A DNA stretch of 44,229 bases from Seison nebaliae. Taxonomy: Eukaryota. Both the position numbers and the translations under genes were made by a program. The notes below the pieces were generated by a model that searched no databases, was not told where the DNA came from, and was given only the letters and a program-made list of their open reading frames with translations. Below, piece by piece: positions 156 to 42,064 of the stretch (positions within the stretch are counted from its first letter, which is position 1; each line of letters starts with the position of its first letter). The stretch is taken from NCBI GenBank assembly GCA_023231475.1, contig JALJEE010000804.1, positions 1 to 44,229 of the forward strand. The letters run 5' to 3'.

Positions 156-1559
156 AAAGGTCCAAGTGTCAATATAAAAGCAGATTATGATAATGGAAAA
201 TTGTCGGTTTATGCTTTATCTTGCAACGATTTAAACAGTTAAAATTTCTGAAAACAATTATAGTACTTTCTCCGTTAGAATTTGCTAAACAATTAGAATC
301 TGTATCAACGAGAGCACCTAGCAAACAAAAATTAAATACACCGGACTGTTACGTCCGTGTGGCGTTATTGTACAATATGAATGACGATAAAACTGAAAGA
401 TGTCTCTTCTTGTTAAGTGGGAGTACTTCAGTTACATTTTCTCGCTTCATCAAACAACGTTCACAGAATCCGGCTTTTAACGAATGTTTTAATTGGAAAG
501 TTCGCATTGAGAATGTTTACTTTATATTCTATTATTATTCCATAGGATATGTCCAACGATGTTCTCCATCGTCTATTCATTTGTTATTCGATCTATGACT
601 TGGTGGAACTTGGACCAACCGAAGTGGAGGCTACAAGTTCCACATTGTCCCGTGGATGTTCTACTTGGTCATTGCGCCATCGGTGTGCCGGTCATTGTTT
701 AGAGAATATTGAGAACATGATTAATGAATGTAGAAATTTACCATCAAACGAAAGTAGTAATGGCATTAATCGAATATTAATTGATGACAGCGATGAAGTT
801 AAACATTTTTCCATAGAACTTATCAGTCACTTTTAATTTCTCTTCTTTTCACTGCATTATCTTCTTACCATGTCTTCTATTTATATCTTTCGTTCTAAGG
901 AAAAAGCTGAACAACTATTAGCAGTTGGTGAATTAGATTTAACGTTGAAATTTGAAGATAAATCAGAAGTGTTGAACATAACTGTCGAGAATATAAAAAT
1001 CTATTTAACCGATAATGCATTACATTCGAAACCGATGAGTGAAAAAGAATTGTTAAAAAGTTTAATTCTTTTTTTTTCCAAGTTCCAGTTCTTCACTGTC
1101 AAATTAATAGAATCACATATAAAAATTGTTGTTCGAGGAAATGACAATATTTTATATGAAGTCAAATTACCAACACGTCCAAAAGTTCTCAAAATTCCCA
1201 AATTTTAATTTTTCATTTGTTCATTAATAAAAGGGACCTGTTCGTACCAAATTAAATTTAACGAGAAAGTCATTGGAGAAGACATCAATGCAAATAACAT
1301 TCTTCTCTCAAATCACTAACGAATTTAATGAATTATCACAAAATAAAAATAATGGAGTGATAAATGCGGCTGAAGTTCTCTCTTTAATCATTTCTTCCCT
1401 ATCATTCATTCTATCATTCTTTTTCAGTTACAAATCTCTCATATTTCCGATGATGTGAATGCCGCTGACCATTGGCGTCAGGTGATGGCCATCAGAAACA
1501 AAGATAAAGATCTCAAAAGGAAACATTTACTTGCATCGCTTCATGCTTGGCATGGCTAG
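1..1559 (+). CDS. Synaptotagmin-like tandem C2-domain protein, 5'-truncated by the window edge. Exons <1-237, 279-499, 546-797, 900-1059, 1111-1184, 1234-1374, 1428-1559
   Basis: Manual splicing joins the short ORFs in frame. C2A-like motifs: [27 protein letters not shown]2B-like start [10 protein letters not shown] and terminal HWRQVM helix typical of synaptotagmin C2B. Stop TAG at 1557-1559. Intron 1060-1110 is in frame and optional; donor 515 is an alternative to 500. Confidence 0.6.
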
Positions 1560-3105
1560 ATGAATTGAACTTAATAAATGAAAGACTTCGACGTGCAAAT
1601 AGTAAAAACTATTGACATATAATGAACCAAAAATTAATTTATTCTTCATTTATAAAACCATCAGTATATCCATCCTAAATATTTAACTCGATCGATCATG
1701 TGGCTATAGAACATTTATATTCTTTCTATTAGAAATTCTTCAAAGTTCTAAATAAAAATTTAAAATTTAATTTATTCTCATAATTTAAGATGTCTAATTT
1801 TAAGAATTTATGCGTAAAATTTCAATTTTTAATTCGGTAATTCATTAAACGTAGAGAATTTTACTAATGTGGTAACTAAAGTGACCGCATACGAAAACTC
1901 ATTAATTGGCTGCTCAAGTTAAAAGTTAATAATTTCTTGGAATAATGAGAGTAAAGAAAATTTTAAACTAGGAGGAAAGCTTTCAATTTTGAATTTATTA
2001 AAATTTTAATTGTCTTTAAGAAAGTTTATTAAAATATCTACACCTCACCTGTAATATTTTTAGTGACTAGAAATTAAAGTTTTTCATTGAAATTTTAATC
2101 TTTCCACCTATCCAGAACTTAATAATGCGCGTTAAATTTTTTTTCAATTTTCATAATGAATCATTCTTTTACAAAACGTACGTGTAATTTACGCATTTTG
2201 AATTTTAATGACGTTCGCTTTTCTTTCCCACATTCACTTACACAGCTTTCTCCCATGGAGTAAGAGATCTTATTCTTACGTGTCTTAAACGCGAAGTGAA
2301 AGGTTGTGAAGCAGTTCAAACAATCTCCTTCAGATTATTTTTCTGTGATACTCTCCTTCTTTCTTTGATCAGCACAGCAATCATTCTCGACAAATATTTT
2401 TGATCAAAAACTTCTTTGATCTACTTATTTGATGTTTTTTACTCCAACATGTCAACTAAACTTTTTTGAAAAAATCAAAATTTTTACTTGATAACATTTC
2501 TTTTGTCAGATAACTTTGTTTTCAAATACTTTTTTCTAATTATTTCTTTTAGAAACATTTCTTTTAGACAGATAATTTCTTTATAAGAATTTCAGAAGAA
2601 TTTTTTGGGTGGATACTCACGAAGAAGCGGTTCGAACATACCAACGTTTTATAAGGTTCTCATAAATCTAATTTTTTCCATCTTCCTTCCAAGTTGTTAA
2701 ACTTCTCAAATTTTTCATAAATTTAATTTGATTAGGATGTAAGATGAGAAATTCGTGTGAGTGAATGACTGGAGAAGAGAGATTGAGATATTTTTCAGAA
2801 TTGATTATTCAAATAATGGGCTTAGTCCGATAAATAAATTGTCTTAATGTTAATTAGAAAAGAAGATGTAGTTAAATAAAAATGAAATATTTATTTAAAA
2901 AACGAAAGAATTTTAAGATGAATTTGTAACAATTTGTTTTTTTCATTTTCTTTCAATTAGAAAAACAATTTAATTTTTTCTTTTTCCGTTACACATTTCT
3001 TTCGTTTCCTTCCTCAGCAGAATCATCTTGCTCTCCTCGTTGGAGGAAAGAAGAATTTACGTAAATTACCACAAAAATTATTAGAGAAGGAGTGAACGAG
3101 TCGAA

Positions 3106-40462: not shown

Positions 40463-40770
40463 TCGATAATCGATATTTAGAACTGATAATTATTTGGAAA
40501 GTTATTTCACTAATCACCTAAAGAGGTTTTGTGGAAAAATTACAAAAGAAAATAATTTCCTTCAAAATTACTTTAATTCAAATTTCAGAGAAATATATTT
40601 CCATTTTAAATTAAATTAATATTTCCTTACAATAAACAAAAAATAAATTATTTTTTCTAATTTCATTTACTCTTTGAAATAATTATCCAGATGAATTTAT
40701 CAATTGACTGGATTTAAAGTCTTGAAAAGAAAAGAAAATATTCTCGGAAGAAAAGAATGAAAAGAATTAT

Positions 40771-42064
40771 TTAGATTCTAAAACAAATTTTTATAAATTT
40801 CTTCAACAAACAGAAAGAATTAAACTTTTTTATTATTTGTACAACATCTTCGTCGCACAGAACATGATCCTTCCCCACAGTCTGCGGTTGATGTTTAGCT
40901 GATCCTCCCCAAACCATTGCTCTTCAAACAAATAACAAATTATAAAGGAAGAAGGAAAAGAGAATGTGAACTGTTTAAAATCTTTCATAAGACTTCGATG
41001 TAGCGTATTACAAAAATCTTCAACAGTATGCGTTTTCCCGTTAAGGATGATTGGTGCATTATAATCAGGAACATGACCTCTCGGCTTCGTGTAACTAAAA
41101 GAGGATAATCGAATAATAATGAAAAGGCGAAGAAAGAAACATTCGAATTAAATTAAGATATTTCCACATTTGTTCTAGTAGATCATCAAAGTTCCATTTG
41201 CGATGTGCTGATATTGGGACGCAATGTGGTATCTTGTAAATGATATCTAACTCCTTTCAAAAATTATTATTTTTGGAGTGAATGAAGAGAAAAATGAGAA
41301 ACTTCAATTGAAATTTGATCGATTTTATTCAGAATATAAATACATGGAATATAAACTCGATTACCTTCGATGACATCGATCAAGTCATCGATCGTACATT
41401 CTTCTCTCACAATCACATCAGCATTATGAATTTTGTATTCGGAGAGAACGCTTTTCACTGTGTCATGATCCAAATCTTCTTGTGGGACAAGTGTTTGAAA
41501 ATTGAGTCCTCCTTTCGCCTTCTGTTTGAAGGAGATATTTGGTGGTTGTTTATTTAATCGAATACCAAATCCCTCCACTTCCTTCTCAATGATTCTTTTA
41601 TGTTGTAACGGTTTCAACACGTCCAATACGATAAAAAGTAGAGAACATGTTCTCGCCACTGTAATGACTTGTTTACCTCGACCTTTCCCGTCTTTCGCTC
41701 CTTCAATAATTCCCGGCAAATCCAACAATTGTATTTTCGCGCCTTTGTACCGAATAACGCCAGGAACAGTCGTCAACGTCGTAAATTCATAAGCGCCAAC
41801 TTCCGAATAAACACCGGCAATATTACTCAATAACGTCGATTTGCCAACTGAAGGGAAACCAACAAATCCGATTCTAGCGTCGCCTGTTTTTGCCACATCA
41901 AAACCTTCACCTTTCCCACCACCACCTCCTTTCGGTTCGATCAATTCTCTTCTTAATTTCGCCAATTGAGCTTTCAACAATCCTAAATGTTTGGCGGTCG
42001 CTTTGTTCTTTTGAGTACGAGCCATTTCCGCCTCAATCTCTTCAATTCTCTCCAATACTCCCAT
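40771..42064 (-). CDS. DRG1: Developmentally regulated GTP-binding protein 1 (OBG family, TGS domain), 366 aa. Exons 42064-41303, 41253-41141, 41094-40972, 40921-40826, 40777-40771
   Basis: [95 protein letters not shown]. The spliced length matches the family (about 367 aa). Confidence 0.97.

What the first reader, a model, noticed from the sequence alone, without database searches (positions are those of the whole stretch)
238..41302. Every reconstructed intron begins GTT: an apparently rewired 5' splice-site code
Seen: 21 of 21 coding-region introns across six spliced gene models have T at +3. Donors: 238 GTTAAA, 500 GTTCGC, 798 GTTAAA, 1060 GTTTAA, 1185 GTTCTC, 1375 GTTCTC, 8722 GTTTCT, 16482 GTTTTC, 16724 GTTTCG, 16923 GTTTTA, 29554 GTTCTC, 29799 GTTAGT, 30795 GTTAAA, 31019 GTTCCA, 34676 GTTAGT, 36477 GTTCTT, 36854 GTTCTC; DRG1 minus strand 41302 GTTTCT, 41140 GTTTCT, 40971 GTTCAC, 40825 GTTTAA. 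Positions +4..+6 vary, +5G occurs in 3 of 21 and -1G in 3 of 21. About nine donors (Lhx x3, DRG1 x3, CNOT11 x2, PGRP) are fixed by protein homology or frame, independently of the pattern; the others were chosen partly with it in mind. Established: the animal U2-type consensus is AG|GTRAGT, read by the U1 5' end and the U6 ACAGAGA box. Inference: this lineage has changed donor recognition, through altered U1/U6 snRNA or altered U1C/LUC7/SNRNP27/PRP8, perhaps with length-based definition of ~50-nt introns.
Basis: partly seen in the sequence, partly recalled or inferred. Interest (0 to 1): 0.92.

Follow-up and report, generated by a model that had tools for sequence, protein, structure and literature searches.

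The report
Rotifer introns that start with GTT
In this stretch of DNA from the marine rotifer Seison nebaliae, all eight introns that protein similarity pins down begin with GTT instead of the GTA or GTG usual in animals, which likely means this animal reads intron starts by a changed rule, probably through an altered U1 RNA (untested).

Summary
The window is Seison nebaliae: DRG1 is identical to deposited SNEBB_002692. All 21 listed donors read GTT. Eight introns are fixed by homology plus frame (DRG1 x4, Lhx1/5 x2, CNOT11 x2), and all 8 are GTT (p about 0.005 given 52% T in introns). A model blind to +3..+6 chose the GTT donor at 16 of 18 valid junctions. In control DRG1 loci, 2 of 26 donors were GTT, and 0 of 19 in animal-like loci, including two intron positions shared with Seison. 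The donor is really AA|GTT: no -1G, no +5G, and a third of acceptors are AAG. A published BUSCO table scores the U6 methylase METTL16 missing in Seison alone among 25 syndermatans. There is no RNA junction evidence, and Seison snRNAs were not read. Best mechanism (inferred): a co-evolved U1 5' end, U5 holding the exonic AA, and unmethylated U6. The closest precedent is Entamoeba (GUUUGU with an altered U1). I found no report for an animal. This scan noted GTT donors before in protists (Bonamia, foraminifers).

The parts
41254..41302 (-). DRG1 intron 1, 49 nt, GTT..AAG, homology-fixed
   Evidence: matches deposited P0001
41095..41140 (-). DRG1 intron 2, 46 nt, GTT..TAG, homology-fixed; same position as introns in control loci L086 and L087, which have a purine at +3
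40922..40971 (-). DRG1 intron 3, 50 nt, GTT..AAG, homology-fixed; same position as an intron in L087 with A at +3
40778..40825 (-). DRG1 intron 4, 48 nt, GTT..TAG, homology-fixed, two codons before the stop
   Evidence: not recovered by the local DP
29554..29607 (+). Lhx1/5 intron between LIM1 and LIM2, 54 nt, GTT..CAG, fixed by homology under GT-AG
29520..29528 (+). Perfect canonical-type donor (-1G, +3A, +4A, +5G, +6T; first intron base would be 29523) inside the LIM1 exon, 31 nt upstream of the GTT donor; using it would delete the LIM1 end
   Evidence: score 39.5 vs 94.0
30795..30852 (+). Lhx1/5 homeodomain intron (Q|VWFQN), 58 nt, GTT..TAG; an in-frame +3A donor at 30786 would delete three helix-3 residues
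   Evidence: 111.6 vs 98.2
16724..16788 (+). CNOT11 intron, 65 nt, GTT..TAG; only GT in phase inside the homology-bounded gap; implies a 7-residue insertion
   Evidence: reading of the sequence
16923..16976 (+). CNOT11 intron, 54 nt, GTT..AAG; only GT between the end of homology and the stop codon
16482..16527 (+). CNOT11 intron, 46 nt, GTT..AAG; frame-required, donor by composition
   Evidence: posterior 1.0; no PDB homology upstream
8722..8784 (+). Proposed 63-nt intron, frame-neutral, unproven
   Evidence: doubt
238..1427 (+). Six proposed introns of a tandem-C2 (synaptotagmin-like) gene: 238-278, 500-545, 798-899, 1060-1110 (frame-neutral), 1185-1233, 1375-1427; donors chosen by frame and composition
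   Evidence: homologs too distant to fix junctions
29799..29850 (+). Lhx1/5 intron after LIM2; frame-required; GTT best by composition, a GC donor at 29792 best by weak homology
31019..31060 (+). Proposed 42-nt Lhx1/5 intron, frame-neutral, unproven
34676..34732 (+). PGRP intron in the signal peptide, 57 nt; both frame-compatible GT donors (34676, 34680) are GTT if the start is ATG 34642
36477..36907 (+). Two introns of an unclassified gene: 36477-36526 and 36854-36907; frame-required, donors by composition
   Evidence: no Pfam hit
28540..28589 (+). Possible counter-example: 50-nt GTC..TAG candidate ending 5 nt before the Lhx ATG; may instead be an outron acceptor or nothing
   Evidence: unverified

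Best explanation
The homology-fixed introns of this Seison nebaliae contig start GTT, mostly after an exon ending in AA, and the likely cause is a major (U2-type) spliceosome whose U1 5' end has co-evolved to pair with AA|GUU. Shown: +3 is T, -2/-1 are A-rich, and -1G and +4..+6 carry no canonical signal. Inferred: a canonical U1 could pair reliably only at -2, +1 and +2, so U1 would have changed opposite +3 (U to A) and probably opposite -1, giving a short helix centred on the cut site in which +3 becomes indispensable. After hand-over, the uridines of U5 loop 1 would hold the exonic AA. U6 would likely lack m6A43 (METTL16 scored missing), would no longer demand +4A or +5G, and would meet +3U at G44 as a wobble. 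The 41-65-nt, U-rich, G-poor introns would be defined across the intron, which would explain why a perfect canonical donor 31 nt upstream in an exon is not used.
For: 8 of 8 homology-fixed donors are GTT; p 0.005 against 51.9% T. A model blind to +3..+6 chose the GTT donor at 16 of 18 valid junctions (p 0.001), and in both misses the alternative deletes conserved protein. Controls: 2 of 26 GTT, 0 of 19 in animal-like loci, purine at +3 at two shared positions; Fisher p 5e-4 for DRG1 alone. AA at -2/-1 11 of 21, p 4e-5; -1G 3 of 21; +5G 3 of 21, p 0.08 vs background. Precedent: Entamoeba GUUUGU with U1 ACAAAC for ACUUAC (bioRxiv 10.1101/2022.06.08.495308). METTL16 is Missing in the Seisonidea column only, 1 of 25 species (PMC12256650 supplement). 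Loss of U6 m6A disfavours +4A and shifts reliance to U5-exon pairing (PMC8163875; PMC11347140). Here +4A is 5 of 21.
Against: No snRNA of Seison was read and no spliced read was seen. In several lineages with atypical donors U1 is unchanged: Thecamonas, Mamiellales and 69 yeasts, 227 Saccharomycotina (PMC10581693), Fritillaria (PMC13326754). METTL16 loss is tied to +4U and to AG exon ends in those papers, not to +3U or AA. 356 of 954 BUSCOs are missing in Seison (280 + 76), so one missing gene is weak evidence and may be a detection failure. 13 of the 21 donors are not homology-fixed. A pyrimidine-only rule at +3 cannot be excluded from the 8 fixed donors (p 0.10). One GTC candidate exists. 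The exonic decoy test was inconclusive.
Confidence: 0.45

Rival explanations
1. The code is real, but the change sits in the catalytic core, not in U1: U6 around G44 of the ACAGAGA box and/or the PRP8 pocket now requires U at +3 and tolerates A at -3 of the acceptor. An altered box would also remove METTL16's substrate and let the enzyme be lost. U1 would be canonical and only loosely needed on length-defined short introns.
For: +3 pairs with U6 G44, and in C* the U6/5'SS helix stacks on the docked 3' splice site capped by PRP8 Q1522 at -3 (PMC9803359). A Prp8 Q1594A change raises AAG use (PMC12707134). Seison changes both +3 and -3 (AAG 7 of 21 vs 0 of 26, p 0.002; 3 of 8 fixed introns, p 0.009) and has lost +5G, the U6 C42 partner. 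METTL16 is scored missing. A yeast genetic link between +3, -3 and U6 G50 is recalled only; one search did not surface it.
Against: The ACAGAGA box is described as perfectly conserved (PMC5855946) and is kept in Entamoeba and Fritillaria. PRP8 and SNRNP27K are scored complete in Seison; their residues were not examined. This rival leaves the first recognition by a canonical U1 unexplained.
Confidence: 0.27
2. Donors have simply decayed to GT (or GT plus any pyrimidine) in U-rich introns; T at +3 follows from base composition and from the reader's choice of junctions, with no new positive rule.
For: Intron interiors are 52% T, 17% C and 5% G; +4..+6 look like background. The pyrimidine-only null gives p 0.10 for the 8 fixed donors. 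A GTC candidate at 28540, and 3 of the 5 unlisted candidates of the de novo scan are not GTT (none verified). Two GTT donors occur in 30-33-nt introns of non-animal controls.
Against: Pure decay gives p 0.005 for 8 of 8 and p 0.001 for the blind 16 of 18. T is 21 of 21 at +3 but only 8, 7 and 6 of 21 at +4, +5, +6. The AA exon bias shows selection on the site. Purine-+3 donors in frame nearby (29523, 30786) would break conserved domains.
Confidence: 0.15
3. Canonical U1 reads these donors in a shifted or bulged register (an extra U at +3), as in rare human sites and as this scan noted for foraminifers.
For: +3U is the hallmark of that class (recalled from Roca and Krainer; PMC4856993 seen as a search listing; notes). 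Two donors (29799, 34676) have G at +5 and T at +6.
Against: A one-base shift predicts A at +4 and +5 and G at +6; observed 5, 6 and 1 of 21.
Confidence: 0.07
4. The introns are recent copies of an intron-generating element whose end happens to be GTT.
For: Lengths are narrow (20 of 21 are 41-65 nt).
Against: Two DRG1 introns sit at positions shared with other organisms. The longest word shared between any two introns is 14 nt, within the shuffled range of 9-17.
Confidence: 0.03

Closest known systems
Entamoeba GUUUGU(U) donors with co-evolved U1 (Roy and Bowser, bioRxiv 10.1101/2022.06.08.495308; abstract and results parts 1-2 of 3 read)
   Same: GT-AG introns with near-fixed U at +3; the only published case I found of a +3U rule matched by an snRNA change.
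   Different: Entamoeba is intron-poor, with a strict six-to-seven-base intronic signal that keeps +5G and +6U. Seison is an animal with several introns per gene here, no intronic signal beyond +3, an exonic AA bias and relaxed acceptors. Its U1 is unread.
METTL16-less lineages and mutants (Parker et al., PMC10581693; Ishigami et al., PMC8163875; Shen et al., PMC11347140; passages or sections read)
   Same: Loss of U6 m6A goes with avoidance of +4A and more weight on U5-exon pairing; Seison is scored as lacking METTL16 and has +4A in 5 of 21.
   Different: Those cases keep a purine at +3 and favour +4U and AG exon ends. Seison changes +3, has +4 C as often as T, ends exons in AA, and keeps SNRNP27K.
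Fritillaria borealis non-canonical introns (PMC13326754; passages and section 30)
   Same: An animal with genome-wide departure from the splice consensus and reduced U6 m6A.
   Different: Fritillaria abandons GT-AG and keeps canonical U1/U6 motifs and METTL16; Seison keeps GT-AG and fixes a new third base.
Shifted or bulged U1 registers of human 5' splice sites (recalled; PMC4856993 listing only)
   Same: U at +3.
   Different: A rare class in humans, needing a displaced consensus that is absent here.

Membership tests
U2-type (major) spliceosomal introns | GT..AG ends at homology-defined junctions | tested here: met
   In DRG1 the GT..AG join has the top or tied-top score among all joins of any dinucleotide at 4 of 4 junctions; for Lhx and CNOT11 GT-AG was assumed.
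U2-type (major) spliceosomal introns | Canonical donor: purine at +3, +5G, -1G | tested here: not met
   0 of 21, 3 of 21 and 3 of 21
U2-type (major) spliceosomal introns | Pyrimidine at -3 of the acceptor | tested here: not met
   A in 7 of 21, 3 of 8 fixed introns, vs 0 of 26 controls
U2-type (major) spliceosomal introns | Removal shown in RNA | not testable with these tools
   No spliced reads were available; support is protein homology and the deposited model P0001.
U12-type (minor) introns | Strict extended donor with A at +3 (recalled) and minor-spliceosome proteins | tested here: not met
   +3 is T and +4..+9 vary; ZMAT5 and ZCRB1 are scored missing in Seison.
Entamoeba-type co-evolved donor/U1 system | Near-fixed U at +3 | tested here: met
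   8 of 8 fixed, 21 of 21 listed; one contig only
Entamoeba-type co-evolved donor/U1 system | Strict +4U +5G +6U | tested here: not met
   8, 3 and 6 of 21
Entamoeba-type co-evolved donor/U1 system | Compensatory change in the U1 5' end | not testable with these tools
   No snRNA in the window and no whole genome held; U1 unread.
METTL16-loss splice-site shift | Absence of METTL16 | tested here: inconclusive
   A published BUSCO row scores it Missing only in Seison; I did not search the genome myself.
METTL16-loss splice-site shift | Preference for +4U over +4A | tested here: inconclusive
   +4: T 8, C 8, A 5, G 0 of 21; close to intron composition except for C (p 0.02).
Shifted-register donors | Canonical consensus displaced by one base | tested here: not met
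   +4A 5, +5A 6, +6G 1 of 21
Introner-derived introns | Sequence similarity among introns and novel positions | tested here: not met
   Longest shared word 14 nt, shuffles 9-17; two positions shared with control loci.

The most novel reading that the evidence does not exclude
Seison is the first animal whose spliceosomal RNA code has been rewritten: a genome-wide AA|GUU donor read by a U1 with a changed 5' end, perhaps also by a changed U6 ACAGAGA box, in a lineage that has dropped the U6 methylase METTL16 and relaxed its acceptors. Thousands of old introns would have been converted in place.
Probability: 0.35. Interest if true: 0.92.

Novelty: new variant of a known kind. Interest (0 to 1): 0.74.

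Why it matters
The donor consensus and its snRNA partners are treated as fixed across animals. The published rewrite with a matching snRNA that I found is in an intron-poor amoeba, where few sites had to change. An animal with several introns per gene that converted old introns to a new third base makes an open question testable: can the splice code and the spliceosome co-evolve in an intron-rich genome, and by which part (U1, U6 and its methylation, U5, PRP8)? Seison also appears to be a natural METTL16-less animal with close relatives that keep the gene. Public genome and RNA-seq data exist (PMC8351084), so the decisive test takes about a day of computation. In practice, gene finders and splice-site models trained on other animals would mis-score this genome.

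Tried and rejected
RNA evidence: no RNA holder was listed. Runs X1 and X2 behave as DNA (contigs cross the introns without gaps) and X6 and X7 laid nothing; this says nothing for or against splicing. Rfam found no RNA gene in the window. snRNA clusters were found in contaminant contigs of bacterial assemblies, but Seison's own U1, U5 and U6 remain unread. The U6 motif search in viral contigs was empty. A homolog search with a CNOT11 exon found nothing. The Lhx search returned no Seison entry among the best 120. The profile search with a C2 exon gave three hits at 26-32% identity, too weak to fix junctions. PDB gave no homology upstream of 16482. The DRG1 search in metagenomes returned mostly intronless contigs and no rotifer genomic locus (L031 is rotifer-like but intronless), so whether other rotifers share GTT is open. 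Exonic decoy depletion was inconclusive: canonical-type words were not depleted (20 vs 19.9 expected) and AGTT was depleted (z -3.6), but GTA and GTC were depleted more. The blind model's run for 34676 used a wrong frame and was dropped (19 run, 18 counted; the 17/19 p-value printed is superseded). The ESM Atlas gave only weak leads for the 3085 ORF. Rejected: shifted register, U12-type and Introner origin (see rivals). No per-donor count of U1 base pairs is given; the pairing argument rests on the position counts.
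Full report
Source. The first DRG1 exon is 100% identical to a deposited 366-aa protein named 'hypothetical protein SNEBB_002692 [Seison nebaliae]' on a 44,229-base contig. Seison is a seisonid rotifer living on Nebalia, with a genome of about 46 Mb and compact genes (PMC8351084, passages). 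No whole genome was held. Two DNA-like runs from two studies cover the Lhx, PGRP, 36-kb and DRG1 introns with contigs that show no other letters, 29554 and 29799 in X2 only. One run may be the source sample, so this only argues against assembly errors at those donors.

Observation. All 21 coordinates read GTT. For DRG1 I built a profile from 108 non-Seison homologs and scored every join of any dinucleotide at each junction (292, 522, 260 and 320 joins). The GTT..AG join was top or tied with synonymous slides at 4 of 4 junctions, and the model equals the deposited protein. For the Lhx1/5 gene, the best GT-AG joins at 29554 and 30795 are the GTT ones (94.0 vs 65.8; 111.6 vs 98.2), though some non-GT/AG joins scored higher; 29799 and 31019 are not fixed by homology. 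For CNOT11, alignments to solved human chains bound two gaps, and by reading the sequence the only usable GT in each is the listed one, at the cost of a 7-residue insertion at 16724. That gives 8 fixed donors, all GTT. Intron interiors are 51.9% T, so p is 0.005. A codon, composition and length model that ignores +3..+6 was run at 19 of the 21 junctions; one run had a wrong frame and was dropped. Of 18, 16 chose the listed GTT donor (p 0.001). The two misses (16923, 41140) preferred a purine donor that deletes conserved protein. Three introns (1060, 8722, 31019) are frame-neutral and unproven. A window-wide scan recovered 8 of the 21 and gave 5 unlisted candidates, 3 of them not GTT. Three lie antisense to long ORFs and one is an alternative donor 17 nt upstream of 16482 (posterior 0.0); the fifth, GTC at 28540 in the Lhx leader, is an open counter-example.

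Control. The same spliced alignment, with no use of +3, was run on 10 of the 80 metagenomic DRG1 loci (those whose match length suggested introns, three of a near-identical group). It found 26 donors, 2 of them GTT, both in 30-33-nt introns of loci far from animals. Six loci with about 300-313 identities to named animal proteins gave 0 of 19; two of these loci are near-duplicates. They include loci of 28-37% GC with 50-83-nt introns, so AT-richness and short introns do not produce the pattern. Two Seison introns lie at the same alignment columns (292, 333) as control introns that have a purine at +3, so old introns were converted, and the introns share no sequence beyond chance. No rotifer genomic control was obtained.

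Anatomy of the signal (n = 21). -2 A 14, -1 A 14, AA 11 (14% expected, p 4e-5), -1 G 3; +3 T 21; +4 T 8, C 8, A 5; +5 G 3; +6 G 1. Acceptor -3: T 10, A 7, C 4, against no AAG in 26 controls (p 0.002; 3 of 8 for the fixed set, p 0.009). Twenty introns are 41-65 nt. A perfect canonical donor at 29523 and a +3A donor at 30786 lie in exons just upstream of the GTT donors, and using them would break the LIM domain or the homeodomain. A wider test for decoy depletion in exons was inconclusive.

Machinery. Seison snRNAs were not read. In the BUSCO table of PMC12256650 (supplement rows seen through term searches; 25 species, Seisonidea is the 23rd column by count), METTL16 and splicing factor 45 are Missing in Seison alone, SNRNP40 in Seison and one bdelloid, and ZMAT5 in Seison and both acanthocephalans; PRP8, SNRNP27K, PRP6, PRP31, PRP38B and ZMAT2 are complete. 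U1C and LUC7 terms had no hits in that file. Seison lacks 356 of 954 BUSCOs, so this is a lead, not proof.

Mechanism. By established base-pairing (recalled), a canonical U1 pairs with -3..+6; the counts above leave only -2, +1 and +2 as regular partners. I therefore infer a U1 altered opposite +3 and -1, as in Entamoeba, where GUUUGU is matched by ACAAAC in U1 (bioRxiv 10.1101/2022.06.08.495308; abstract and results parts 1-2). The exonic AA would suit U5 loop 1, and unmethylated U6 would fit the lack of +4A (PMC8163875 abstract and section 9; PMC11347140 passages). Against this, U1 is unchanged in several other lineages with odd donors. The main rival puts the change in U6 G44 or PRP8, which touch +3 and -3 (PMC9803359 and PMC12707134 passages); it explains the AAG acceptors better but needs a change in a motif described as perfectly conserved (PMC5855946 passages). 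Decay to GT or GT-pyrimidine keeps about 15%. Overall I put a genome-wide changed donor at about 0.8 and the U1-centred mechanism at 0.45.

Novelty. Nine full-text searches listed no report of Seison or rotifer donor consensus. The main Seison genome paper mentions introns twice and 'splic' once, and its supplements have no hit; PMC10125929 (passages) mentions Seison alternative splicing only. Subscription papers, including Hagemann et al. 2024, were not searched. Earlier notes of this scan describe GTT donors in Bonamia and shifted-register donors in foraminifers and other protists (unchecked). The kind of system is known from protists; an animal case of this shape appears to be new.

Noticed in passing
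window 3085-8067 and 8700-17384 (+): CNOT11 is in two pieces: its N-terminal part (human residues about 21-97, E 1e-4) lies at the start of a 1,660-codon ORF, and its C-terminal domain ends a separate ORF chain of about 2,800 codons with a 7.7-kb exon. Either the gene is split, or an unlisted intron of 740 nt or more joins the two; in-phase donors of all four kinds exist.
   Followed up: partly
window 28540-28589 (+): T-rich tract and TAG five bases before the Lhx1/5 ATG with no nearby GTT: a GTC/GTG-donor leader intron or a trans-splice acceptor (rotifers use SL trans-splicing).
   Followed up: partly
window 33636-34259 and 34642-35277 (+): Two tandem PGRP/amidase genes (PF01510); the first is intronless, the second has one intron in the signal peptide.
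   Followed up: no
window 31700-33300 and 42300-44229: Multi-copy repeats (depth 5-15 times that of the genes) with what look like transposase and retrotransposon gag/protease remnants (by eye).
   Followed up: no
L029 3162-7402 and L030 2101-5180: Eukaryotic contaminant contigs in two bacterial MAGs carry tandem units with U1, U2, U4, U5, U6, SRP and 5S genes together. The L030 U1 5' end looks unlike the usual donor-pairing sequence.
   Followed up: no
PMC12256650 supplement, BUSCO_Syndermatan rows 240, 252, 647, 709, 796: Seison is scored as lacking SNRNP40, METTL16, ZCRB1, SPF45 and ZMAT5, hinting at loss of the minor spliceosome as well.
   Followed up: partly
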